In this document: positions 26,504 through 57,387 of the stretch, piece by piece
Layout: the number at the start of each line of letters is the position of its first letter
How positions within the stretch are numbered: position 1 is the stretch's first letter
Origin: a virus
Lineage: Duplodnaviria > Caudoviricetes
Length of the DNA stretch: 61,298 nucleotides
Strand: one strand, 5' to 3'
Virus record (IMG/VR): IMGVR_UViG_3300047408_000236
Location: 1-61,298 of that record
Notes under the pieces: generated by a model
What the model saw: only the letters and a program-made list of their open reading frames with translations
Told to the model about the DNA's origin: nothing
Databases searched by the model: none
Made by a program: the position numbers and the translations under genes

Positions 26504-26648
26504 ATTGGTGACTCGGATGAGCGGCTCAGAGTTCGCTCACTGGGTGGCGTACCACATCCTCGAGCGTCGAGACGAAGAGCGTGCTATGCGTCAGGCCAGG
26601 AACAAGCAGCAGGCGCAACGGCTGAGTAAACAGGTGAATCGGGGTTAG
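26439..26648 (+). CDS. Tail assembly chaperone second frame (gpT-like)
   Basis: LA..LGMT..EL...MS..EF..W.AY pattern; overlaps gpG-like gene. Confidence 0.65.
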   Translation: MRDPSLRFEYTLAKMLGMTRAELVTRMSGSEFAHWVAYHILERRDEERAMRQARNKQQAQRLSKQVNRG

Positions 26649-26651
26649 CCG

Positions 26652-28829
26652 ATGCCTGTGCCAATTGCCGAGCTCTTCGTATCGGTGGGCGCCGATATCT
26701 CTGGTGCCACTCGCGGTCTGAGCCAACTGAACTCGCAACTTAACAATATTGGTAGTAATGCCGGAGCGGGGTTCAGTCTTGCGAACGTCGGCAAGAACCT
26801 CAGGACTATTGGGAGTCAGGCCAAGACCACGGGGTTCAACCTGACGCAAGACCTGACCGCGCCGATCCTGGGTATAAGTGCAGCGGTGTTCGGCGCAGGC
26901 TCAGATTTCGAGCACGCGTTTACCGAAGTCAAGCGTACGGTCACCGGTCTGGACGACACGCAACTCCAGGACTTGCGAAAAGATCTACTGGATATGAGCA
27001 AGACTCCCGCCGGCGGTCTGAAGACTGCTTCAGAACTGGCAGAGATTGCTGCGGTTGGCGGTCAACTCGGGCTCGCCGGCGGCGATATCAAGCAGTTCAC
27101 TTCGTTAGTAGCACGCCTTAGTTTGGCTACTAACCTGCCTTTTGCTCAGGTTGCTGACGATGTTGGCCGTGCGATCAACGTTCTCGGGTTGGCAAGTAGC
27201 GACTTCGAGCGGTTTGGGTCTGTCATTACTAAACTAGGAAATGACTTCGGCGGAACTGAAGCCGACATTCTGGAATTCAGCCGAAGGTTGGGCGGCACAC
27301 TGTCCTCACTCGGAGTGAAGCCGGCACAGATTGAGGCAATCGGCGCTGCCTTATCGGCGGCAGGGGTGCTTCCAGAGGCAGGCGCTACAGCGGTCAACCA
27401 GTTCTTCGTCGACATGGTCAATAGCCTGAATGAGACGAGTGGCGCATCTGAGGAGACGAAGCAGAAGCTCCAGAATTTGAAGGACACGATTTCTGATCTG
27501 AGCAGCAACCTCGAAGTAGCCTCGCTTCGTCAGAAAGAGTTTGGACGTAATACCCCGGCGTCAGTTGTCAAGGCCAATCAACTTGCGATACAGAAGTATC
27601 AGCGTGACCTTGGTCAGGCCAATACGAAGTTGGATGCGTTCTCGCAGACGTCGGCCGAAGGAACGCTGAATATCGGTGGCATGGCTAAGGTTGCCGGAGT
27701 CACTGATGAAGAATTCCGCAACCTTATCAAGACCGACCCAGCACGTGCCTTCGCGAGTTTCGTGGATGGATTACGTCGGATTCAACACTCCGCTGGCGGG
27801 CCAGCAGCGGTTACCAAGACGCTCGAAGAACTGGGTATCACAGGTGACCGACAGCGGGAAACGTTCCTCAACCTGGCCAACGCTCAACAAGATGTCACGT
27901 CGGCACTGAACATAGCCGAGCCTGCATGGAACAAGCAGACTGCGCTATCAGACGAAGTCGCTACCGCTATGGAGGACATGAAGAATCAGATCAAACTGGC
28001 TGCCAATGTCTTTCAAACATCACTGATCGATGCGTTCGACAAGCAAAGGCCAGCGATCCAGGCGCTCGTTGACCAGATCAATACCGACCTGATCCCAGCC
28101 TTCAAGAATCTAGTCGATTCGATTCCTGTATTGTCACCTGATGCGCTCAAAGCCCTTGGTGCATTGGCAGCGCTCGGTCCGGCGATTATTGCATTAGGTG
28201 CAGCGCTGTCGATCGTAGGTGCCATCATCCTTGTCCTGAGCGCTCCGTTAACACTGCCCATCATCGCCGTGCTCGCTGGCTTGGCGTTGGTGTTCGGGTT
28301 GGTCGCTGCAAATAAAGATACGATCAATAACGCCTTCGATAACATCGTCGCTGGAGCCAAGACGTGGGGCACCGATTTCAATAACGCGCTGCAGGCAGCA
28401 ATCCTTGGAGCGGGCTCGATCTTCTCGGCGTTCGGCACGTTCCTGGACGGCTTCTTCAATACAGTCATCTTGCCGATTTTCCAGCGATTCCCGGCCTGGA
28501 TTTTGGAACACGTGCTCGGCCCAGTCATTGGGCTACTCGAATTCTTACAAACTCTCGGGATCACCAGTATTCCCGGTGTAACCGCTGATCTCGGGGCAAC
28601 GATCGCCGATCTGAAGGCAAAGCAGACCGCTGCGGCGGCTACGGCCGGTGGTGCCCAAAACGCTATCAACGTGACGATCAATAACCCGATGGTCACGAGT
28701 CAGAATCTACTTGACCAGCTCGCGACCAATGTATCGAACGCAGTCACGACCGCGCTTATCACAGCTGAGAAGAGCGTGATCATCGCGCCACAGCCGTTGC
28801 CTGGCCATGTTCCGGGTACGCCGTTCTAA
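26652..28829 (+). CDS. Tape measure protein (TP901-like)
   Basis: 725 aa, helical, Ala-rich; IAELFV.V.AD start; hydrophobic segment near the C-terminus. Confidence 0.92.
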   Translation: MPVPIAELFVSVGADISGATRGLSQLNSQLNNIGSNAGAGFSLANVGKNLRTIGSQAKTTGFNLTQDLTAPILGISAAVFGAGSDFEHAFTEVKRTVTGLDDTQLQDLRKDLLDMSKTPAGGLKTASELAEIAAVGGQLGLAGGDIKQFTSLVARLSLATNLPFAQVADDVGRAINVLGLASSDFERFGSVITKLGNDFGGTEADILEFSRRLGGTLSSLGVKPAQIEAIGAALSAAGVLPEAGATAVNQFFVDMVNSLNETSGASEETKQKLQNLKDTISDLSSNLEVASLRQKEFGRNTPASVVKANQLAIQKYQRDLGQANTKLDAFSQTSAEGTLNIGGMAKVAGVTDEEFRNLIKTDPARAFASFVDGLRRIQHSAGGPAAVTKTLEELGITGDRQRETFLNLANAQQDVTSALNIAEPAWNKQTALSDEVATAMEDMKNQIKLAANVFQTSLIDAFDKQRPAIQALVDQINTDLIPAFKNLVDSIPVLSPDALKALGALAALGPAIIALGAALSIVGAIILVLSAPLTLPIIAVLAGLALVFGLVAANKDTINNAFDNIVAGAKTWGTDFNNALQAAILGAGSIFSAFGTFLDGFFNTVILPIFQRFPAWILEHVLGPVIGLLEFLQTLGITSIPGVTADLGATIADLKAKQTAAAATAGGAQNAINVTINNPMVTSQNLLDQLATNVSNAVTTALITAEKSVIIAPQPLPGHVPGTPF

Positions 28830-44284: not shown

Positions 44285-45892
44285 CTAGTCGGCCGTCGCG
44301 TGGCCGCGCGTACGGTGCATGCGCTGGATGTTGACCTTCTTGGTGACCGGCTCGCCGTGGTACGGGTTGACGCAGTGCCGCGGACACGATCGTCTGTGAT
44401 CCCACTCGCCCACCGGGAACCAGCGGCCATTGGCGATCTCCCACACGACCTGATGGGCCGGCCGGTTGTTCTTCGGGCGGCCGTCAGGATACGCCCAGCG
44501 CTGGACGCCGTAGCCGTCCTTGTCGATCGAGCCTGTCCACAGCCAGCAGTCGCCTTGCGATCGGTCAATCTTGCCCAGCACCTCGCGCACCTCGATCGGC
44601 GGTAAAGGCAGCGCCGGTCGCTCAGGCTCGGGTGCCCGCCCTATCTGCTCGATGACCACCCTACGCCCGTAGGGAGGCTCTGTAGGAATAGGCGTAGGGG
44701 GTGGAACGTAGGAAGATTTGGGCGGCTTGGGGAACTTGACGAGGCGACGGATCCTGCCGTGGGCGATGTAGGCAGTGAAGTCCTGCATATTGGCGGGGTC
44801 GAGGTCGCGGTAGTCGAGGCCGAGCCGGTCAGCGGCTATTTTCTGGAGTGGCTTGAGTTCCTGGGCGAAGTAGACGCGGGTGCTGATATTGGCACTGATG
44901 CCGTCGTTGAGATCCGATTCGGCCTGGGTGAGGTCGTCGACTGCGATTTTGCGGCGGCGGCCGGCCCGGTGGAATGGTTCTGCGAGGTCGATGCGTTCGC
45001 CGAGTTGGCCGGCTTCTTCGAAGATCAAGCGAAAGCCGCCGGGTACGAGTGACGCGCAGCGTTTGGCTTCGGCCAGACCGAGTGCAACAACGTCGCCGCC
45101 GAGTGATGGGTGATCGAAGGAATCGTTGTCGAGCAGGACGCTGATGCCGCGGTTCAGGAGGTCGGCAATGTCGACGCCGTCGGGGCCGATGCTAGTACCG
45201 AACTGGTCGGCCAGGTCGAGGAATCTGGCCACCCAACCGGCACAGACGGTGCGCAGCTCGCGGTCCGACTTGACGGTCTGCTCGAGCCGCTCGCCAATCA
45301 AGCGTAGGGTCCGTTCTTCTCCGCGGGCGTCCAGTTGACGGATCACGTCGGCGGTGGCACGGCGGGCAGCCCGTTTCCAGGCGCCTACGCCACCCGAGCG
45401 GAATACTTCGGTGAGTCGTTCGGCTACTTCGGTTGGTGAGCCAATCAGAAAGTTGACCGGGTTGGTGCTGACGCACGCGGTCCAGCGGAAGCCGTGCAGG
45501 CGCACTACGGCGTCGACCAGTGGGTCAGACAGATCAGGTGTGGCTACCAGTGCCACTCGTTTGCCGTCGAGCCTGACGGTTGCAACGGATGCGCTCTTGC
45601 CGGCTCCAGTTGGCCCGAGCCAGGCGCAGTGTGGCTTTCTTGTCCGATCGATGACCAGCCCATCGACCTTCATCAGATCGTGTGGCGGGCGAAGGCTCCA
45701 CCACCAGCGGCGGAACAGCGGCGTATTGGTTGGACGTCGGACTATGACGTCCTTGGCGGAACCGTTGTCAATCTTGCCACGATCATTGCCAGGCATGATG
45801 ACAAACAAAAGCCCTGCTACTCCGAGAAGCAGCAGGGCTGTACGCGTCTGATCGTTCTGTTGGAGAAACTCAGCCAGTGATGTCGGGTTCAC
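44285..45892 (-). CDS. VirD4/TraD-like coupling ATPase fused to a C-terminal HNH endonuclease domain
   Basis: N-terminal TM, Walker A GPTGAGKS, Walker B LIFEEAG, GR..K..V...TQ; Pro-rich linker; then CWLWTG..DKDGYG...AHQVVW...DH...C..CVNP.H...VT...N. Confidence 0.7.
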   Translation of the reverse strand: MNPTSLAEFLQQNDQTRTALLLLGVAGLLFVIMPGNDRGKIDNGSAKDVIVRRPTNTPLFRRWWWSLRPPHDLMKVDGLVIDRTRKPHCAWLGPTGAGKSASVATVRLDGKRVALVATPDLSDPLVDAVVRLHGFRWTACVSTNPVNFLIGSPTEVAERLTEVFRSGGVGAWKRAARRATADVIRQLDARGEERTLRLIGERLEQTVKSDRELRTVCAGWVARFLDLADQFGTSIGPDGVDIADLLNRGISVLLDNDSFDHPSLGGDVVALGLAEAKRCASLVPGGFRLIFEEAGQLGERIDLAEPFHRAGRRRKIAVDDLTQAESDLNDGISANISTRVYFAQELKPLQKIAADRLGLDYRDLDPANMQDFTAYIAHGRIRRLVKFPKPPKSSYVPPPTPIPTEPPYGRRVVIEQIGRAPEPERPALPLPPIEVREVLGKIDRSQGDCWLWTGSIDKDGYGVQRWAYPDGRPKNNRPAHQVVWEIANGRWFPVGEWDHRRSCPRHCVNPYHGEPVTKKVNIQRMHRTRGHATAD

Positions 45893-48329: not shown

Positions 48330-48864
48330 GACGGACCCGGCCGAACCCGACGAGGTGTGCGCGCCAGAACGGGTCCGTATAGGACTGGCGGCCAACAACA
48401 GGCTCAATCGCGCTGACCATCCAACCCGGCGCGACGACTATCCCCACATGGGTTATTCGATCGGGGGAGCTGTAGGTTCGCTGGAAGAAGACCAGGTCGC
48501 CAACGTCGGGGGTAGTGACGAGCGGTACGTCGTTGTACTGAGTTTGTGCGGTACGCGGCAGTGAGTAGCCGAGTGTGCGGAACACCGCTACCGTGAGGCC
48601 CGAGCAGTCGATGCCGCGTCGGTCATTGCCACCGAAAACGTAGGGCACGCCCATGTATGGCTGAATAGCGGCCATAAGTGCTGATGTGTCGCTGAGTAGC
48701 GGTCCTGCTGGTGCGACTTGCGCGGGTGCGGGCACGGTGCCCGCTGGCTGCAGGTTCGAGCCGGCGAACCAAAACGTCGACCAGGCTTGTGAATGCAAGC
48801 CGACTGCTGGTGCGAGGATGAACATGGCGAACACGGCGAGGCCGACACCGATCCAGCGCATCAT
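48322..48864 (-). CDS. NlpC/P60 (C40) peptidoglycan peptidase with signal/TM segment
   Basis: GVPYVFGG, GIDCSGL, LPRTA..Q, GDLVFF, HVGI. Confidence 0.92.
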   Translation of the reverse strand: MMRWIGVGLAVFAMFILAPAVGLHSQAWSTFWFAGSNLQPAGTVPAPAQVAPAGPLLSDTSALMAAIQPYMGVPYVFGGNDRRGIDCSGLTVAVFRTLGYSLPRTAQTQYNDVPLVTTPDVGDLVFFQRTYSSPDRITHVGIVVAPGWMVSAIEPVVGRQSYTDPFWRAHLVGFGRVRHG

Positions 48865-49802
48865 GCGCGAAACAACAATCTCCGCAGGATCAGGAACTTG
48901 CCAATACCGCCACCACCTCCACCGCTGTGGTGGCTCGCACCGAACATGCTCGGCATCTTGCGCGCCAGCAGCAGCACCGCGATGCCGAGCACGGTGCCCA
49001 CAAAGCCTGTGCCAATCCCACCGAGCACCGGCGCCAGCCGAAGACAGATAACGATCGCGATCTGGCTGAACAGCGTGCCCGCAGCCAGCGAGGTGTAGCG
49101 GCTCGCCCACGAGTCGGTCTGCTCGAGCGACTTGGTCACGAGCGCGAGTGGGCCGACGATGATCAAAATGTCAATCAGCGCAAGCCTGAATACCACGGAG
49201 AACACCAGCATCAAGGCCACGACCGCATAGACGATCACGAGCACCGACGGCCCGAAGGCTTCGACGGGATTGCTCGTGAGTGTGGGTACTGTCATGTGTG
49301 GTCGGACGATGCTGGCCAGGGACGGCGCGGCAATGGCGGCACAGATGCCGTTGTTCAGGCTGATGCCGATCTCCCACCACATCAGGTTGAGCCCACTCAC
49401 GACCGCGCCATAGGCAAGGCGGCCGTAGGAGGCGCCCTGATGGAGCATGTGGCCGAACGCCGCGGCAACGACGAACAGGACGACCAATGACATTGCTACA
49501 GCAGTAGCGGTCGTGGCTAACGACCGGACGGTGTCATTACGGAACGTCCACTCGGGTGGGGTGGTCGTGAAAATGTCGGCCATGTTGATGGCATCGTTGG
49601 CCCACTGCACGAGCGTGGGTGCGACGAGCTGCACAACGATGGCATTCGAGCTCTCTACAGATGCATCGGCTATGGCTTCAGGGTCTGGCGGTGGCGCCTC
49701 GACGGTCACATGGTTCTGAATGACCTGGATTGGCTGAGGCTGCGGTTGTGGCAGGGGCGGGCCGATCTGCAGGAAGAGGACGGCGAGTATCGCCAGTATC
49801 AC
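48861..49802 (-). CDS. VirB6/TrbL-like polytopic membrane protein
   Basis: Multiple TM helices; R...I.ILII.GPLA......T.SW pattern; Gly-rich C-terminus; first gene of the operon. Confidence 0.65.
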   Translation of the reverse strand: MILAILAVLFLQIGPPLPQPQPQPIQVIQNHVTVEAPPPDPEAIADASVESSNAIVVQLVAPTLVQWANDAINMADIFTTTPPEWTFRNDTVRSLATTATAVAMSLVVLFVVAAAFGHMLHQGASYGRLAYGAVVSGLNLMWWEIGISLNNGICAAIAAPSLASIVRPHMTVPTLTSNPVEAFGPSVLVIVYAVVALMLVFSVVFRLALIDILIIVGPLALVTKSLEQTDSWASRYTSLAAGTLFSQIAIVICLRLAPVLGGIGTGFVGTVLGIAVLLLARKMPSMFGASHHSGGGGGGIGKFLILRRLLFRA

Positions 49803-49891
49803 GCGACTCTAGACATTCCCTTGTCTCTTACCTTACACTGGCTGGACAAGGACTGACAAGAGAGGGCTCCTGTATCGTTTACGTACAGGGA

Positions 49892-50092
49892 ATGCGACTG
49901 ACGCGTCTAAAGGACCGGCGCGAGCGGGCCCTGCTGACTCAACATGAGTTGGCTGAACGCGCCGGTGTCAGTCGCGCCACGATCGCGGCAATCGAGGCTC
50001 AGAAGGCCGAGCCGCAGTTTTCCACAATCCGCAAACTTGCGGAGGCACTGAAGTGCGAACCAGCCGACCTGATGGAACCCGAACAGACCTAA
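49892..50092 (+). CDS. XRE-family HTH transcriptional regulator
   Basis: LTQ.ELAERAGVSR.TI..IE...P...TIRKLAEAL; divergent from the T4SS-like operon; stop codon lies in site A. Confidence 0.9.
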   Translation: MRLTRLKDRRERALLTQHELAERAGVSRATIAAIEAQKAEPQFSTIRKLAEALKCEPADLMEPEQT

Positions 50093-50111
50093 TGGTGCTT
50101 AGATCTAGCAA
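50080..50111. repeat. Palindromic recombination-like site A
   Basis: CGAACAGACCTAA-TGGTGC-TTAGATCTAGCAA. Confidence 0.75.
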
Positions 50112-50346
50112 GCCCTGCGAGCACAGCGATCGAGTTCGGCCTGTCGTCTGGCAACTCATCGGACTCGAAGAAGTGCCGCAGACCGTCGTCTGCGAGCAGT
50201 GCATGCGGCCAGTCAATGCTCAGGCCGTCGGTCACACGGCCTATCACGAAGCAGACGATGGCTGGTATGTGCCGATTCAGCCCCAAGGTCCTGACGACCA
50301 CGAAGAACGCTGCTACCTCGCTGGCTATGGCGAAGACGACCAATGA
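50092..50346 (+). CDS. Hypothetical protein (cassette 1)
   Basis: Starts inside site A (TAATG); CxxC. Confidence 0.55.
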   Translation: MVLRSSKPCEHSDRVRPVVWQLIGLEEVPQTVVCEQCMRPVNAQAVGHTAYHEADDGWYVPIQPQGPDDHEERCYLAGYGEDDQ

Positions 50347-50362
50347 CCCACTTCTGCGGAGC

Positions 50363-50725
50363 ATGACTGACAAAGGAACCACCGACCAGATTGCACAGCG
50401 GTACATCGAAGTCTGCGCCGAGCGCGACGCCCTGCGCGCCAAGGTTGAGCGGCACGAGCGACGATTTCGAGAGGCTGAGGCTGAGTGGGTCGAACGGTTC
50501 GAGCGCCTGGAGGCCGAGAACGAGCGGCTGAAGAAGGCATACGACGTTGAAGTGCGAGCCGAGAAGCGCGAGCGTGATGCCCTTACCGCAGAGGTAGAGC
50601 AGCTACACCAGGAACTGGCCGATGCCCACTCAGCACATGCGACCGTGGCTGACCTCTTGCGCGAAGCCAACAAGCCGCAGCCAGACGCTCTGGACAGCCA
50701 CGAGATGGAGACGATGCCGTTTTGA
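50363..50725 (+). CDS. Coiled-coil hypothetical protein (cassette 1)
   Basis: GGAG RBS; heptad repeats. Confidence 0.6.
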   Translation: MTDKGTTDQIAQRYIEVCAERDALRAKVERHERRFREAEAEWVERFERLEAENERLKKAYDVEVRAEKRERDALTAEVEQLHQELADAHSAHATVADLLREANKPQPDALDSHEMETMPF

Positions 50726-50892
50726 CCGCCGAGCAGTTTGAGCGAGTCGCACAGCTGGTCGTGGAGATCGCGAGCGATGATCCATCCGGCGATGACCTCG
50801 TGACCCTCTGCCTTGCGGCTATGTACATGCTGCCTGAGAGCGTCCGCAGTCGCGAGAGTCGCGAGCGCCTTGGCAGACCTAATTGTTGTTAG
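50722..50892 (+). CDS. Small hypothetical protein (cassette 1)
   Basis: TTGA overlap; TAG stop lies in site B. Confidence 0.45.
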   Translation: MTAEQFERVAQLVVEIASDDPSGDDLVTLCLAAMYMLPESVRSRESRERLGRPNCC

Positions 50893-50901
50893 AGGTGACC
50901 A
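50870..50901. repeat. Palindromic recombination-like site B
   Basis: TTGGCAGACCTAA-TTGTTG-TTAGAGGTGACCA. Confidence 0.75.
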
Positions 50902-51101
50902 AAATCGAACCGACTGAAGCCCACATCGACATCGAGGGCGTGCGGCTTAGTGAAGGCCAGTCAATGGCCGTGCGCGTGGCAATCGAGATGTATATGTTCG
51001 ATCTTGAGCGAGAACTGGCGAAGGGCATGGGGCAGGTCGGGCAGAACTACTTGGCCCGGTTGCGCGAGGTGCGACGGCTGATATCGGAGGGAGCCATTTG
51101 A
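50883..51101 (+). CDS. Hypothetical protein (cassette 2)
   Basis: Starts within site B (TTG 50883 or GTG 50895); stops 2 bp before site C. Confidence 0.6.
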   Translation: MLLEVTKIEPTEAHIDIEGVRLSEGQSMAVRVAIEMYMFDLERELAKGMGQVGQNYLARLREVRRLISEGAI

Positions 51102-51103
51102 TT

Positions 51104-51136
51104 TTGTCAGAGGCTAGTTGTTGTTGGATCTGGCAA
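51104..51136. repeat. Palindromic recombination-like site C
   Basis: TTGTCAGAGGCTAG-TTGTTG-TTGGATCTGGCAA (left arm has one extra base). Confidence 0.7.
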
Positions 51137-51166
51137 GCGTGGCATGTTTAAATTCCGTCAAGCCGC

Positions 51167-51799
51167 GTGCGCCCCTACTACGAGCAGGACGGAATCACGA
51201 TCTATCACGGCGACTGCCGCGAACTCGTGCCTAGCCTGGCGTTTGACGTAGTGATTACTGACCCGCCATACGGTAGCGCTGTTGCTTATGACATATATCC
51301 GGATACCCCCGCTAACTGGCAGTCGATCATGGCCTGGCTGCTCGCCTTGCCGCAGCCGATGGCATTCACGCTGAGCCACAGTCGGCTCTTTGATCTGGGT
51401 CGCAGACCCCAATGGGTTGGCTGCTGGGACAAAGTCAACACGGGCGGCATTGTTCATATCGGTGCCAGCCCTTCGTGGGAGCCGATCTGCTTCTACAACC
51501 TGCCTCGTGGTGATTCTGGCATCGCTAGATGGAATGACGTGTTCCGATATGCTGCCACTGGCTTCGCCAATGAGGTGCAAATCGGTCGCCCTCATCCGTG
51601 TACTAAGCCTGTACTCCTTTACCAGCGACTGATAGCAGTAATGCCCTCGGGCATCGTCCTCGATCCGATGATGGGCAGCGGCACCACGCTACGAGCAGCT
51701 AAGAACCTCGGGCACCGTGCGATCGGCATCGACGTGTCTGAGCGCTACTGCGATCTGGCTGCCCGGCGTCTCGCGCAAGGCGTCCTGTTCGCGACTTGA
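51167..51799 (+). CDS. N6A/N4C DNA methyltransferase (cassette 3)
   Basis: IYHGDC, TDPPYG, HP..KP, DPMMGSGTT, AIGID; stop codon lies in site D. Confidence 0.9.
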   Translation: MRPYYEQDGITIYHGDCRELVPSLAFDVVITDPPYGSAVAYDIYPDTPANWQSIMAWLLALPQPMAFTLSHSRLFDLGRRPQWVGCWDKVNTGGIVHIGASPSWEPICFYNLPRGDSGIARWNDVFRYAATGFANEVQIGRPHPCTKPVLLYQRLIAVMPSGIVLDPMMGSGTTLRAAKNLGHRAIGIDVSERYCDLAARRLAQGVLFAT

Positions 51800-51827
51800 T
51801 AGACCTAAAGATGGTTAGGGTTGATAT
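51796..51827. repeat. Palindromic recombination-like site D
   Basis: TTGATAGACCTAA-AGATGG-TTAGGGTTGATAT. Confidence 0.75.
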
Positions 51828-51912
51828 GCCACCACTGGATGCAGTGCTGCTGATGCTGGGCGCTCTGGCCGTCGGCTGGGTACTCGGGTGGCTGTCGTCA
51901 AAATTGGTCTGA
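51826..51912 (+). CDS. 28-aa membrane peptide (cassette 4)
   Basis: MPPLDAVLLMLGALAVGWVLGWLSSKLV fills the D-E interval. Confidence 0.5.
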   Translation: MPPLDAVLLMLGALAVGWVLGWLSSKLV

Positions 51913-51919
51913 CTGAGGC

Positions 51920-51951
51920 TTGTCAGATCTATGTGCCGTTATGTCGGATGA
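51920..51951. repeat. Palindromic recombination-like site E
   Basis: TTGTCAGATCTAT-GTGCCG-TTATGTCGGATGA. Confidence 0.7.
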
Positions 51952-52180
51952 GCCGTGGTGTGACAACGAGTGCCCAGCGCAGGCTCAGTTCGTCTGGTTT
52001 GGCCGCTACCTCTGCGAGCCGTGCGCCCACCGCGAGCACGCGCGCGGCGCCTTTCGCATGTGTCCCTGGCATGGGCGCTACTGCTCAGTCTGGCGTGGCG
52101 AGCACCGAGAAACTGACCACGAGCGCAGGAGCAAACCCCCCGAGGCAACGGCCCAGCCGCCGCTGTTTTGTCAGATCTAA
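51941..52180 (+). CDS. Cys/His-rich small protein (cassette 5)
   Basis: ATG lies in site E, TAA lies in site F. Confidence 0.55.
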   Translation: MSDEPWCDNECPAQAQFVWFGRYLCEPCAHREHARGAFRMCPWHGRYCSVWRGEHRETDHERRSKPPEATAQPPLFCQI

Positions 52181-52199
52181 CTGTCCTAAGTTCTGACAA
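52168..52199. repeat. Palindromic recombination-like site F (most symmetric; candidate primary/att site)
   Basis: TTGTCAGATCTAA-CTGTCC-TAAGTTCTGACAA (11/13 arm symmetry); 3 bp from the recombinase stop codon. Confidence 0.8.
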
Positions 52200-52202
52200 G
52201 AT

Positions 52203-53129
52203 TTAGAGGTTCCAGCGAGCCGACAGTGATGCGGTGTCGGCGATCTCGTTGACCGTGCGGTCACTCAGCGTAATGTAATCGCTTAAAACGTCCCGACTCA
52301 TCTGGCCGAGTCTCGAGCGGAGCTGGATCTCGGCGCCCGGTCGCTGCGCCAGGAACTCCGTCGCAGCAGAATGCCGCGTCCGATGCGGGTGAGCGTTCGG
52401 TACGCGAGCAGCCGTGCCCATCTCCGTGAAAATCTCGCGAACCCGGCGTGGCGAGAGCGGTAAGCGCTCACGTGTGGTGAATAGCGCATCGATGCCGGCG
52501 CGCGCCTCGCGCACCTTCAGCCAGTTTCGAAGCGCCGACAGGCTTGGGCCGCCATCACGCCGAGCCTGGACGCGAAAAATCACTTTGCGCGGATGGCCGT
52601 TCTTCGTGCGGCGAAACAGGATCGAGCCCTCGACCAGGTCGACGTCGGCGACGCTTGCGCTACAGAGCTCGCCCACGCGACAGCCGGTATCGAACAGCAT
52701 CAACAGCACCGCTCGATCGCGAATCGGATTGGCGCCACATGCCGCCGCTTGTACCAACCGGCGCGCTTCGTCTTCGGTGAACGGCTTGCGATGAATCTTC
52801 TGGACGCGTGGCACCTTGAGCCGAGCCAGCGGATCGAACGGGTAGACGTCGTTTTCCCACAGGAACCGCGCCCAGGTCTTGAGCGTGGTCACTCCCTGCT
52901 TTTCGGTGACCAGCCCACCACGGCGACCGTGGGACCGGCCGCGGAGCCAGGCCTGCCACTCGCGCACGAACTGCGGGTTGAGTGCGTCGAGCGTGGGCTC
53001 GACCTCGTGCTCGACCAGGAACGCCAGGAAACTGTCCTGGTAAATGCGGTACAGGCGCAGCGTCATCGGGCTGCGGTTCAATCGCTCCAAGCTACGCCGG
53101 TGAAACTCAGCGGCTTCGATGAGGTCCAC
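52203..53129 (-). CDS. Tyrosine recombinase/integrase (XerC/D-like, no arm-binding domain)
   Basis: RDRA.L..L.DTG.R.GEL, TKNG, HPH.TRH..AT, LGQ, D-Y; GTG start with GGAGGG RBS. Confidence 0.92.
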   Translation of the reverse strand: MDLIEAAEFHRRSLERLNRSPMTLRLYRIYQDSFLAFLVEHEVEPTLDALNPQFVREWQAWLRGRSHGRRGGLVTEKQGVTTLKTWARFLWENDVYPFDPLARLKVPRVQKIHRKPFTEDEARRLVQAAACGANPIRDRAVLLMLFDTGCRVGELCSASVADVDLVEGSILFRRTKNGHPRKVIFRVQARRDGGPSLSALRNWLKVREARAGIDALFTTRERLPLSPRRVREIFTEMGTAARVPNAHPHRTRHSAATEFLAQRPGAEIQLRSRLGQMSRDVLSDYITLSDRTVNEIADTASLSARWNL

Positions 53130-53261
53130 AGGAAGCCCTCCAGCACCCCTTTTGATCCCGCGTAATGTAGAACGCAAGTTCTAGGCTTTCAAGGGGCTGG
53201 GGTTGGTTAGACGGTGAACTGGTGCGATAACAACGGTTGGGCGGCCGGGCACGGGCGGCAG

Positions 53262-53795
53262 TTAGAGCGCGGCGGCGGCAGTTACGTTGAAACGGTGGCC
53301 ACCCAACGGCCGGCCAATCGGGAATTGACGTGGCCTTAACGTGCTACCCGAGTCGCCCCGCTTGGGGCGCGTACGAGTCTTTCGGCCACTAACGGCGGCA
53401 TTAACGGCGGCCTGGGCACCCTCATTAACGGCGGTCCCCACCTGGTGGATCAGGTCGACCACCGAATCGCCCTGGGCCTTTAATGCTTCCCAGAAGTAAT
53501 CTTCGTGTTCCGGCCCAACGGCCGCTAGCCAACGGTCGAGCTGATCGCGCACGAGCTGGCGGCGGGCGTCGATCTGCTCGTGGGAATCGCCCTTGCCGAT
53601 CACGCCGGCCAGTCCGGCCGGGGTCATATCAAAGGCAGCGGCGATATTCTCGAAGGTTTCCATCTCGACGTTGTCATCGCCGTTGATGATGGCGTACGCC
53701 TTGGATGCGCTGATGTTGGAACGTCTGGCGATCTCTCGGACAGACCAACCGCGACGCAGCCGCTCGGCCTCGAAAAAGTGTTGAAGCGCGGCCAC
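53262..53795 (-). CDS. Immunity repressor (XRE HTH)
   Basis: RGWSVREIARRSNIS.S....I.NG HTH; divergent from the Cro side; upstream of the recombinase. Confidence 0.8.
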   Translation of the reverse strand: MAALQHFFEAERLRRGWSVREIARRSNISASKAYAIINGDDNVEMETFENIAAAFDMTPAGLAGVIGKGDSHEQIDARRQLVRDQLDRWLAAVGPEHEDYFWEALKAQGDSVVDLIHQVGTAVNEGAQAAVNAAVSGRKTRTRPKRGDSGSTLRPRQFPIGRPLGGHRFNVTAAAAL

Positions 53796-56636: not shown

Positions 56637-57028
56637 CCACCGCACTGACCGGCGCCACCTTGCTCGTGCATCTCATCGTTAGCGGCGAGCCGATCCCCAA
56701 GGCGCGACCTCGCTTAGCCCCAAGGGGCCACACGTACACGCCGCGCCGGACCGTGGAACAGGAAGCCAAGGTGCTGGCCTACCTGAAGGTCCAGTACCCG
56801 CGTCTGGTGCCCGTTGAGGGCGCGCTCAGCGTGTCCACGGATTTCTACCTGAGTACCACGCGCACGGTGGACCTCGACAATTTGCAGAAACTGATCTGGG
56901 ATGCGCTCCAAGGGGTGGTGTTCCGGAACGACTCGCAGATTGTGGAGTCGTACGCGCGCAAGCATCTGAGCGGTATCCCTCGTACCGAGATCAGCGTTCA
57001 CGTGCTCGGCGGGAATGGAGCTGCATGA
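56633..57028 (+). CDS. rusA: RusA-family Holliday junction resolvase
   Basis: P.PKARPR, DLDNLQK...DAL.G....NDSQI. Confidence 0.9.
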   Translation: MTTALTGATLLVHLIVSGEPIPKARPRLAPRGHTYTPRRTVEQEAKVLAYLKVQYPRLVPVEGALSVSTDFYLSTTRTVDLDNLQKLIWDALQGVVFRNDSQIVESYARKHLSGIPRTEISVHVLGGNGAA

Positions 57029-57387
57029 TGGCATTGAGTCGGCGCGAGGTGTGGTGCCTGACGTGTCTGCTCTGCGCTCTGCTCTGCGCCTTCACTTTGA
57101 TCTGGCTCGCCGCGCCGGCGCATGCCGAGGAAGAAGATGTACAGGTCTCGCCGTACTCCGCGCGTGCCGATTGCATCGTGTCGTACGAGTCGCACTGGAA
57201 TGCGTACGCGGTCAACCCGCGCAGTGGCGCCAGTGGACTCGGGCAGTTTCTTCGATCAACGTGGATGACCACACCGTACGCCGGACACTCGGTCTTCGAC
57301 GCATACGCCAATCATGCCGCGGTGTGCTGGATGCTGAGTGTCGGTCGCGCACGGGAGTTCGACGTTGTTCGGCTGGGGTGGTGCTAA
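57025..57387 (+). CDS. Lytic transglycosylase/Rpf-like protein with signal peptide
   Basis: Signal ending AHA; CI...ES.WN..A.NP.SGASGLGQF..STW. Confidence 0.75.
   Translation: MMALSRREVWCLTCLLCALLCAFTLIWLAAPAHAEEEDVQVSPYSARADCIVSYESHWNAYAVNPRSGASGLGQFLRSTWMTTPYAGHSVFDAYANHAAVCWMLSVGRAREFDVVRLGWC

What the first reader, a model, noticed from the sequence alone, without database searches (positions are those of the whole stretch)
50080..53129. Array of six lox/dif-like sites bounding small gene cassettes next to a Xer-like recombinase: candidate integron-like cassette system in a phage
Seen: six related 32-33 bp imperfect palindromes with 13-6-13 architecture (consensus TTGTCAGAYCTAA-N6-TTAGRTCTGACAA) start at 50080, 50870, 51104, 51796, 51920 and 52168. 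Every one lies at a gene boundary. Stop codons fall within sites A, B, D and F, and start codons within A, B, D and E. The five intervals (790, 235, 691, 124 and 248 bp, spacer to spacer) hold complete, co-oriented, unrelated genes: a DNA MTase, a 28-aa membrane peptide, and Cys-rich and coiled-coil proteins. The most symmetric site (F) lies 3 bp from the stop codon of a tyrosine recombinase with no arm-binding domain. Known: simple tyrosine recombinases act on inverted arms around a 6-8 bp spacer (loxP 13-8-13, dif 11-6-11), and pdif modules and integrons accumulate cassettes this way. Inference: the recombinase captures, excises or shuffles cassettes at site F, and they are read from the promoter upstream of the XRE gene at 49892. 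It differs from a classical integron: the array is 3' of the recombinase, the sites are short with no attC hairpin, and I see no IntI-type insertion.
Basis: partly seen in the sequence, partly recalled or inferred. Interest (0 to 1): 0.92.

Follow-up and report, generated by a model that had tools for sequence, protein, structure and literature searches.

The report
Ordered gene-junction sites in soil phages
Six look-alike 32-base sites sit exactly between the small genes of one operon of this soil phage, and other phages keep the same sites in the same order while the genes between them differ, so they look like fixed joints for swapping genes; the recombinase gene next door is probably not what works on them.

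Summary
The six dyad sites are real, confined to one 2.1-kb operon of this complete 61-kb phage genome, and sit on stop/start junctions. The same site family forms one array per genome in seven other high-GC IMG/VR phage genomes. The arms are generic. The 6-base centres fall into a few classes that keep one order in all eight genomes, while the genes between them differ: all five intervals differ between the window and G003. So "conserved joints, variable cassettes" holds.

The proposed engine does not hold:
- Relatives of the integrase (75-79% identical) have no site beside it.
- Five of seven complete array-bearing genomes have no PF00589 protein; four of those carry large serine recombinases.
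- No protein family is shared by all array phages.
- Contigs from three other soil samples show the same arrangement.
- The one natural cassette-number change found (G008 vs L402) crossed over inside paralogous coding sequence, not at a site.

The arms show no covariation, so these are not hairpin or attC-like sites. They look like half-sites for an unidentified factor. Best reading: junction elements (PeSL/ESAS-like) that survive as joints of modular exchange. The mechanism is unproven. This scan noted the same pattern before on other DNA (SPbeta-like phages).

The parts
49810..49839 (+). sigma-70-like promoter match upstream of the operon
   Evidence: 9 of 12 consensus positions with an 18-nt spacer. 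This is a consensus match only.
49892..50092 (+). XRE-family HTH gene, first gene of the operon
   Evidence: HTH_3, 3e-16. PHROG transcriptional regulators. Homologues at 45-57% identity in G002, G004, G008 and G009 only.
50080..50111 (+). site A (centre class A)
   Evidence: Holds the XRE stop and the overlapping start of the next gene.
50092..50346 (+). 84-aa Cys-containing protein; its first codons are encoded by site A
   Evidence: ORF. No family hit.
50363..50725 (+). 120-aa coiled-coil-like protein; its start carries a lone right-arm-like half-site
   Evidence: ORF. Half-site word at 50367. 104 nt are 89% identical to G001. Homologues sit in other slots in G004.
50722..50892 (+). 56-aa ORF ending inside site B
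   Evidence: No family hit.
50870..50901 (+). site B (centre is a TTG repeat)
   Evidence: B-type sites in G003 and G008 have centres of other lengths.
50883..51101 (+). 72-aa ORF between B and C
   Evidence: No family hit.
51104..51136 (+). site C (7-nt gap in this register)
   Evidence: 24 nt are identical to the C-type site of G003.
51167..51799 (+). DNA methyltransferase (N6/N4 type)
   Evidence: PF01555, 2.2e-18. phrog_67, 1.5e-41.
51796..51827 (+). site D
   Evidence: 26 nt are identical to the D-type site of G003, with unrelated flanks.
51811..51912 (+). 33-aa hydrophobic peptide ORF starting in the centre of site D
   Evidence: No family hit.
51920..51951 (+). site E (commonest class; found in all eight genomes)
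51920..52180 (+). Cys-rich 79-86-aa ORF ending in the left arm of F
   Evidence: No family hit. An alternative frame (51888-52196) is also open.
52168..52199 (+). site F, the terminal site of the array with no gene after it
   Evidence: Arms match 11/13. It is the only full-consensus match in the genome. Terminal-class sites end the arrays of G001, G002, G003, G008 and G009 as well.
52203..53177 (-). Xer-like two-domain tyrosine integrase, convergent with the operon; probably not acting on the sites
   Evidence: PF00589, 3.2e-24. Matches XerC/XerA/XerD models over nearly their whole length but far below their cut-offs. Aligns to XerA residues 24-309; the R, E, K, H-x-x-R and Y positions are kept and one His/Trp position is Gln.

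Best explanation
The six sites belong to a conserved family of gene-junction elements. Each genome of a group of high-GC soil phages carries one ordered array of them.

Anatomy of a site:
- A generic, well-conserved 13-nt left arm that carries the stop codon of the upstream gene.
- A 6-nt centre that is specific to the site's position in the array.
- A looser right arm that usually carries the start, or a ribosome-binding-like purine run, of the downstream gene.

The arms behave as two sequence-read half-sites for a DNA-binding factor that the phages do not encode in common. It may be a host protein or an interchangeable phage regulator.

Inferred function: the sites punctuate and couple expression of a hypervariable accessory operon. 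Because they are the only conserved islands in otherwise unrelated DNA, they are the joints at which genes are replaced slot by slot. This would happen through general (short-homology or illegitimate) recombination between phages sharing a host, followed by selection for intact stop/start joints. The adjacent integrase would not be involved.

Shown: the anatomy, the restriction to one array per genome, the conserved order, the variable content, the independence from integrase type, and the absence of arm covariation.

Inferred: the factor, the regulatory role and the recombination route.
For: One array per genome:
- Found in eight genomes with a spacer-free half-site scan and a 32-nt matrix (3 hits per 1.66 Mb of shuffles).

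Order:
- About 33 sites were found. The order of centre classes A<B<C<D<E<terminal is never violated in 8 of 8 genomes.
- The window and G003 share all six classes in the same order, while all five intervals hold different genes.

Conservation confined to the sites:
- Conservation stops at the edge of the 32 nt.
- G002 and G003 are 78-84% identical in both flanks, but inside the array only the sites match.

Arms generic, centres position-specific:
- Within a class, identity is left 0.80, centre 0.96, right 0.54. Between classes it is 0.75, 0.34, 0.54. The classes were defined by their centres.

Genes move between slots:
- The same gene family occurs in different slots: SLOG/YAcAr in G001 and G003; a paralogous pair in G008.
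- The YhhQ-type gene of G001 is fused to site-encoded first codons.

Stops and starts:
- A TAA stands at arm positions 11-13 in 26 of 29 sites.
- A start inside the site opens an ORF of >= 25 codons in most non-terminal sites.

No hairpin signal:
- Pairing is 67.8% observed against 69.5% when partner arms are shuffled among sites; 482 of 500 shuffles are at least as high.

Route of change:
- A natural change in cassette number arose by homologous recombination.

Shared gene pool:
- Contigs of other phages in the same soil runs match the window only at the sites (joints with 22-26-nt sides; loose ends of G001 type).
Against: - No binding factor is identified.
- The XRE gene is missing from 3 of 8 array genomes, and no protein family spans all of them.
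- The centres of classes E and F are nearly invariant although their NTG opens a real ORF in at most 2 of 9 (E) and 0-1 of 6 (F) cases. Neither translation nor a plain operator model explains this well; it fits a recombination-compatibility label better.
- The one documented rearrangement had its crossover inside coding sequence, not at a site. So exchange at the sites themselves has not been seen.
- The eight genomes amount to two lineages, the window and one clade of seven, so the counts are not independent.
- No expression data exist: no RNA run holds the stretch.
Confidence: 0.45

Rival explanations
1. The sites are true site-specific recombination sites with mutually incompatible (heterospecific) 6-bp overlap regions. 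They would be read by a host Xer-type recombinase or another recombinase not yet recognised. Same-centre sites of two co-resident phages would recombine, while different centres within one genome would not. This would give ordered, slot-by-slot cassette exchange.
For: - The 13-6-13 architecture with a fixed 6-nt gap holds in all class A, D, E and F sites aligned.
- The arms are generic, while the centres are class-specific and nearly invariant.
- The collinear order is never broken.
- E and F centres are conserved beyond any start-codon need.
- The inner TAA-N6-TTA matches the inner positions of the Frankia alni dif quoted in PMC3025954 (passage read). By my own hand count, about 10 of 20 specified positions agree.
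- In mycobacteria, dif variants changed in the central region recombine only with identical partners (bioRxiv 10.1101/758037, abstract and passages).
Against: - B- and C-type centres are a TTG repeat whose length varies (about 3, 5, 6 and 9 nt) among genomes. A fixed strand-exchange geometry does not allow that.
- B and C share a centre in direct repeat yet persist in 3 of 3 genomes.
- Paralogous cassettes in different slots do not carry their flanking arms with them.
- The only rearrangement seen was homologous, within coding sequence.
- All sites point the same way, unlike pdif modules.
- Similarity to an actinobacterial dif is weak, and the host is unknown.
Confidence: 0.22
2. The sites are purely regulatory operators or roadblocks (like stoperators or SPBRE) for the XRE protein or another repressor. 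They would keep the accessory operon silent or timed. The variable genes between them would reflect ordinary phage mosaicism, with the sites playing no part in exchange.
For: - The half-sites are read by sequence, with no covariation.
- The strongly conserved arm is asymmetric and always has the same orientation relative to transcription.
- The sites sit at gene junctions, as described for stoperators (PMC9283540 and PMC6550527, search listing and abstracts only).
- XRE is the first gene of the window's operon. Homologues lie 0-3.7 kb upstream of the array in 4 other genomes.
- A precedent exists for repeated intergenic sites bound by a repressor with a recombinase fold (MrpR/SPBRE, PMC10516654, passages read).
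Against: - There is no full site in the promoter region of the operon.
- XRE is absent from G001, G003 and G010, two of which have the richest arrays.
- The main repressor-like gene (53262-53795) has homologues only in phages without adjacent sites.
- One protein would not be expected to need five different, individually invariant centres.
Confidence: 0.2
3. RNA-level elements: each site folds in the mRNA as a hairpin that hides the next start until the upstream ribosome terminates in the left arm. This would be translational coupling, or a processing or terminator signal.
For: - The stop lies in the left arm and the start in the centre or right arm at most non-terminal sites.
- F, E and C fold somewhat better than shuffles, with z of -3.7, -2.0 and -1.6.
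Against: - A, D and B do not fold better than shuffles (z 0.1, -0.5, -1.3).
- There are no compensatory changes, and pairing is no better than with arms of other sites.
- G-U pairs show no sense-strand excess: 24 sense against 17 antisense among 260 cells.
- Terminal sites have no downstream gene, and 4 of 6 of them have poor right arms.
Confidence: 0.05
4. One reading: the adjacent Xer-like tyrosine recombinase captures, excises or shuffles cassettes at site F, in an integron-like way.
For: - F lies 3 nt from the integrase stop codon and is the most symmetric site.
- The integrase has a simple two-domain architecture that would fit a roughly 30-bp core site.
Against: - Integrase relatives lack adjacent sites.
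- The arrays occur with serine integrases, with a distant and unrelated tyrosine integrase, or with none.
- Terminal-class sites end the arrays in those phages too, next to lysis or tail genes.
- The whole operon is missing from the nearest relative at this locus. The juxtaposition therefore looks like an accident of where the module landed.
Confidence: 0.04

Closest known systems
PeSL (promoter-early stem-loop) cassettes of T4-type phages (PMC2839356, abstract and outline read; PMC4122927, listing only)
   Same: - Short conserved motifs flank small, non-essential, variable genes in hyperplastic regions.
- The motifs are the points of insertion, deletion and replacement between relatives.
   Different: - PeSLs are a sigma-70 promoter plus a terminator hairpin and recombine with each other, giving mini-circles.
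- Here there is no promoter match at the sites, no hairpin covariation, position-specific centres in a fixed order, and no circles seen.
Extended start-associated sequences (ESAS) of Cluster K mycobacteriophages (PMC3203893, passages read; PMC12699233, passages read)
   Same: - Imperfect inverted repeats lie at the translation starts of non-structural genes, all in one orientation.
[quoted passage not shown]
- The function is still unverified.
   Different: - ESAS have 17-bp arms and a variable 4-13 bp spacer, and usually come with the 13-bp SAS. The SAS is absent here (0 matches with up to 2 mismatches).
- ESAS travel with their gene family. Here the sites stay in place while the genes change.
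Stoperators of Cluster A mycobacteriophages (PMC9283540 and PMC6550527, listing and abstracts only)
   Same: A roughly 13-bp asymmetric conserved element at gene junctions, in one orientation relative to transcription.
   Different: - Stoperators are spread across the whole genome and co-vary with the immunity repressor.
- Here the sites are confined to one operon, carry a second arm, and no repressor is shared.
pdif sites and dif modules of Acinetobacter plasmids (PMC5790767 and PMC13141974, listing and abstracts only)
   Same: - Arm-6-arm sites bound modules of accessory genes that shuffle between replicons.
- The recombinase is host-encoded rather than adjacent.
   Different: - pdif sites are 11-6-11 copies of the host dif, and the sites flanking a module are inverted (recalled).
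- Here the sites are 13-6-13, all direct, resemble an actinobacterial dif only weakly, and the host is unknown.
Integron attC/attI with IntI (recalled knowledge)
   Same: An array of promoterless, co-oriented cassettes separated by imperfect palindromes.
   Different: - attC sites are recognised as folded single strands with conserved structure rather than sequence, and they need an adjacent IntI.
- Here sequence is conserved but pairing is not, and no recombinase is consistently present.
SPBRE sites bound by MrpR in SPbeta (PMC10516654, passages read)
   Same: A repeated intergenic element within one phage, read by a DNA-binding protein. It shows that recombinase-type sites can be operators.
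   Different: - SPBRE is a 15-bp motif in about ten promoter regions, bound by a catalytically dead protein with a recombinase fold.
- The window's integrase keeps 6 of 7 catalytic positions, and most array phages have no detectable tyrosine-recombinase homologue.

Membership tests
Integron | An adjacent IntI-type tyrosine integrase in every member | tested here: not met
   PF00589 is absent from 5 of 7 complete array genomes and lies 11 kb away in a sixth. The IntI-specific insertion was not examined.
Integron | attC sites kept as a folded hairpin (structure conserved, sequence free) | tested here: not met
   Pairing is 67.8% observed against 69.5% with partners shuffled, with no excess of compensatory changes. 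It is the sequence of the arms that is conserved.
pdif / dif modules (Xer) | Sites are 11-6-11 copies of the host chromosomal dif | not testable with these tools
   The host is unknown. Only a hand comparison with the Frankia alni dif quoted in PMC3025954 was made: about 10 of 20 positions agree.
pdif / dif modules (Xer) | The sites flanking a module are in opposite orientation (recalled definition) | tested here: not met
   In every array all sites have the strong arm on the same side.
PeSL cassettes | A strong sigma-70-type promoter within each element | tested here: not met
   The scan of 49600-53400 gives two promoter-like matches, neither at a site. The host's promoter type is unknown.
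PeSL cassettes | A stem-loop that terminates transcription | tested here: inconclusive
   Only F (z -3.7) and E (z -2.0) fold better than shuffles, and there is no T-run.
PeSL cassettes | Elements mark the indel and replacement points between relatives | tested here: met
SAS/ESAS (Cluster K) | The 13-bp SAS next to start codons | tested here: not met
   0 matches with up to 2 mismatches in the window.
SAS/ESAS (Cluster K) | Imperfect inverted repeats at the starts of non-structural genes, the left repeat nearer the consensus | tested here: met
   Arm length and spacer rule differ from ESAS.
Stoperators | Many sites spread over the genome, co-occurring with one immunity repressor family | tested here: not met
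   The sites lie in one operon only. No regulator is shared by all array genomes.
Stoperators | The repressor binds the sites and blocks elongation | not testable with these tools
   This needs EMSA, ChIP or RNA data. No RNA run holds the stretch.

The most novel reading that the evidence does not exclude
Generic arms plus position-specific, nearly invariant 6-bp centres would make these sites natural heterospecific recombination sites. A host Xer-type enzyme, or a recombinase not yet recognised, would pair only same-centre sites of two phages in one cell. Accessory genes would then be exchanged slot by slot without scrambling the operon. That is a natural counterpart of recombinase-mediated cassette exchange. 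It would be shared by unrelated phage lineages and, going by this scan's earlier unchecked notes, also by SPbeta-like phages with a different arm sequence.
Probability: 0.2. Interest if true: 0.85.

Novelty: new variant of a known kind. Interest (0 to 1): 0.6.

Why it matters
Phage genomes are mosaics, but how unrelated genes are swapped cleanly at gene boundaries is largely unexplained. Here a small set of 32-nt joints is kept in the same order in otherwise unrelated phages while every gene between them is replaced. The genes include DNA methylases, a 7-deazaguanine salvage pair, SLOG proteins and many small orphans.

That gives a concrete, testable substrate for modular exchange of accessory genes that may serve counter-defence. 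It also gives a handle for finding such hypervariable gene sets in metagenomes, and possibly a set of portable stop/start couplers. If the centres prove to be recombination labels, this would be a new kind of ordered cassette system that needs no dedicated integrase.

I found no description of this motif or arrangement in the searchable library. Subscription journals are not covered.

Tried and rejected
Searches that gave little:
- blastn of 49800-53200 against cultured phages: no match.
- Integrase against one genome per prokaryote species: only 26-28% hits. No prophage copy was found, so no attL/attR and no host.
- TerL against cultured phages: at most 45% identity, spread over many hosts. 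Host still unknown.
Only 1 of 93 loci read was a real site, and it lay on a contig already known.
Among the 116 loci from it and the class-F scan scanned together, only L402, was a new array.
- L401, also, did not pass the matrix and had no similarity to G008. It was not pursued.

Readings considered and set aside:
- Promoter reading of the sites: no match at the sites. By eye, the TTGNCA-like box and any TA-rich hexamer are only 13-15 nt apart.
- Terminator reading: no T-runs.
- RNA hairpins.

Reads:
- All four runs are contigs, so circles and rare variants cannot be seen.
- The four joints have sides of 21-30 nt, mostly with 'between: not known'. I read the two whose ends lie in sites B and D (50451>50874, 50903>51801) as contigs of other phages that share the sites or a gene fragment, not as deletions. 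I did not explain the other two, in g3 and in the integrase gene.
- Parts of the stretch without cover in X4 and X5 are not interpreted.

Common trans-acting protein:
- blastp clustering of 2,536 ORFs from eight genomes found only three families linking the window with four or more other genomes: a secreted SLT/Rpf-like protein, a 73-aa protein and XRE.
- BLAST sensitivity is limited. A divergent recombinase-fold protein like MrpR would be missed by PF00589.

Other:
- The dif comparison was done by hand only.
- Earlier-findings look-up by place (relatives) found nothing.
- Supplementary files of the papers were not requested. The SAS/ESAS site tables in the supplements of PMC3203893 and PMC12699233 were therefore not seen.
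- I did not search G000, G003 or G004 for serine recombinases.

Full report
What the window is. It is a complete IMG/VR virus record of 61,298 bp with direct terminal repeats, about 61% G+C, with no tRNA genes. The stretch is held by contigs of seven soil-metagenome runs from seven studies. The region of the finding is a plus-strand operon (49892-52180) wedged between minus-strand genes. Downstream lie the integrase (52203-53177) and a repressor-like HTH gene (53262-53795).

- Only F is a good palindrome (11/13). The others pair at 7-9 of 13, and C needs a 7-nt gap.
- The half-site is enriched: 23 matches against 12.0 +/- 3.5 expected, and no shuffle reaches 23.
- A two-arm scan finds these six sites and nothing else in the genome.
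- The integrase aligns over its whole length with two-domain Xer-type recombinases.

The same sites in other phages. A pattern scan of IMG/VR followed by matrix scans found the same dyad family in seven further high-GC genomes, G001-G004 and G008-G010.
- Each genome has a single array, and strong half-sites occur nowhere else. This holds with a spacer-free scan and with the 32-nt matrix, which gives 3 hits in 1.66 Mb of shuffles.
- Conservation ends at the edge of the 32 nt.
- The left arm is nearly invariant (19-20 of 20 at eight positions), while the right arm is loose.
- The seven genomes form one clade by shared structural proteins, and the window is a separate lineage. The evidence therefore comes from two lineages, not eight independent ones.
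- Two relatives of the window's own lineage also carry sites elsewhere in their genomes. G006 has a single class-E site. G005 has a weak D-E-E array about 11 kb from its integrase.

Order and content. The 6-nt centres fall into a few classes: A tggYgc, B/C a TTG repeat, D agatgg, E gtgccg, and terminal F ctgYcc.
- Two terminal sites, in G004 and G010, have other centres.
- Across about 33 sites the order A<B<C<D<E<terminal is never broken.
- The window and G003 have all six classes in the same order, with 24-26-nt identical patches at C and D. Yet all five intervals hold different genes.
- G002 and G003 are 78-84% identical on both sides of the array, but inside it only the sites match.
- Gene families turn up in different slots. 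SLOG/YAcAr lies between B and D in G001 and between E and F in G003. A coiled-coil gene related to 50363-50725 follows class E in G004. A paralogous pair occupies two slots in G008.
- The YhhQ-type transporter gene sits in the replication region of the window and G002, but inside the array of G001. There its body is fused to first codons supplied by the site.
- Arms are as alike between classes as within them (left 0.75 against 0.80; right 0.54 against 0.54). Centres are 0.96 identical within a class and 0.34 between classes. The classes were defined by their centres, so the informative facts are how few classes there are and that their order is fixed.

Not the neighbouring integrase.
- Four contigs encode a 75-79% identical integrase, and none has a site within 6 kb of it.
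- Three of the four whole contigs have no left-arm match. The fourth is G005, described above.
- In G005 the gene corresponding to 48861-49802 lies about 256 bp from the integrase, so the whole operon is absent there.
- Among seven complete genomes with arrays, PF00589 is found beside the array only in the window. It lies 11 kb away in G003 and is absent from G001, G002, G008, G009 and G010.
- Four of those five encode large serine recombinases; G009 has neither type.
- The terminal site ends the array in those phages too, facing lysis or tail genes.
- The window's integrase is preceded by a conserved promoter-like stretch with a GAAC-N4-GTTC box shared with its relatives. It looks like an ordinary integrase, possibly under SOS control.

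What the sites are not.
- Folded sites or RNA hairpins. Pairing within a site (67.8%) is no better than pairing with the arm of another site (69.5%; 482 of 500 shuffles are as high). Compensatory changes are not in excess. G-U pairs show no strand bias. Only F and E fold better than shuffles.
- Sigma-70 promoters or intrinsic terminators.
- The dyad is real in register, so the arms look like two half-sites read by sequence.

What reads them is unknown.
- XRE homologues exist in 4 of the 7 other genomes, but not in G001, G003 or G010.
- No protein family spans all the array genomes.
- A host factor, or interchangeable regulators, remain possible.

How content changes.
- G008 and L402 are 99.2-99.4% identical but differ by 1,104 bp in the array.
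- L402's single cassette is a chimera of G008's two paralogous cassettes, with the crossover inside coding sequence. This is plain homologous recombination, and it removed two sites.
- Contigs at 100% identity from three other soil samples bridge A, B, D, E and F in the window's arrangement, so the array is stable in this lineage.
- In the same runs, contigs of other phages match the window only at the sites, so phages carrying these sites co-occur.
- B- and C-type centres vary in length among genomes, and B and C coexist with the same centre in three genomes. Both facts argue against an efficient strand-exchange reaction at these two classes.
- Against that, the E and F centres are nearly invariant without serving as start codons. 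This is most simply read as a label that must match a partner.

Reading. I commit to conserved junction elements of a hypervariable accessory operon.
- They carry the stop and usually the start signals, and are read as half-sites by an unidentified factor.
- They persist as the joints of slot-by-slot gene replacement through general recombination and selection (0.45).
- Site-specific exchange by a host Xer-type enzyme using heterospecific centres is the main rival and the most novel reading (about 0.2).
- A purely regulatory operator or roadblock role comes next (0.2).

Comparison with known systems.
- The nearest published analogues are PeSL cassettes of T4-type phages (PMC2839356) and the ESAS repeats of Cluster K mycobacteriophages (PMC3203893). 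Both share the placement at gene junctions. ESAS also share the left-arm bias and remain of unknown function (PMC12699233).
- The present sites differ from both in having position-specific centres in a fixed order and in staying put while the genes change.
- Stoperators, pdif modules, integron attC sites and SPBRE/MrpR each fail at least one defining feature, or could not be tested (see the membership table).
- Earlier notes of this scan describe junction palindromes with their own 6-base centres kept in order in SPbeta-like phages. Those notes are unchecked here. I reached the same pattern independently (precedes), on unrelated DNA with a different arm sequence.
- I found no paper describing this motif.

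Noticed in passing
window 53164-53200 (upstream of the integrase start); L004, L005, L006 upstream of their integrases: A promoter-like stretch carries a GAAC-N4-GTTC box of the kind known as a Gram-positive/actinobacterial LexA (SOS) box (recalled). It is conserved in three of four integrase relatives. This suggests SOS control of the integrase and hints at the host type.
   Followed up: partly
G008 26505-28121 versus L402 1862-2374: Two phages 99.2-99.4% identical differ by 1,104 bp. L402's one cassette is a chimera of G008's two paralogous cassettes, with the crossover inside the coding sequence. The event removed a class-C and a class-E site.
   Followed up: yes
There the transporter has site-encoded extra first codons.
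   Followed up: partly
window 57025-57387: A secreted protein with a weak SLT-like transglycosylase match (120 aa, signal-peptide-like start) is the only protein family shared by the window and six of the seven other array genomes. It is 88% identical to its G002 homologue, far above the rest of the genome.
   Followed up: partly
window 50870-50901 and 51104-51136; G003 and G008 B/C-type sites: The centres of the B- and C-type sites are a TTG repeat whose copy number differs among genomes (about 1 to 3 units). This looks like slippage of a run of possible start codons.
   Followed up: partly
window 51888-52196 and 51920-52180: Two overlapping frames are open across the last cassette (102 and 86 aa). 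The Cys-rich frame ends in the left arm of F, as other cassettes do. The other frame starts at the GTG in the centre of E.
   Followed up: no
window 51118-51234 and 51167-51799: The ORF that starts in the centre of site C (38 aa) is out of frame with the methyltransferase. The methyltransferase starts 30 nt after the site with no obvious ribosome-binding sequence.
   Followed up: no
G006 45017-45048: A 55-kb contig whose terminase and two other proteins are 84-87% identical to the window's carries a single class-E site upstream of the terminase region, in a quite different context. CheckV rates the contig only 16% complete.
   Followed up: partly
window 52203-53177: In the integrase, the His/Trp position of the LGH-type motif is Gln, while the relative L005 has His there. 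The other six catalytic positions are kept.
   Followed up: partly
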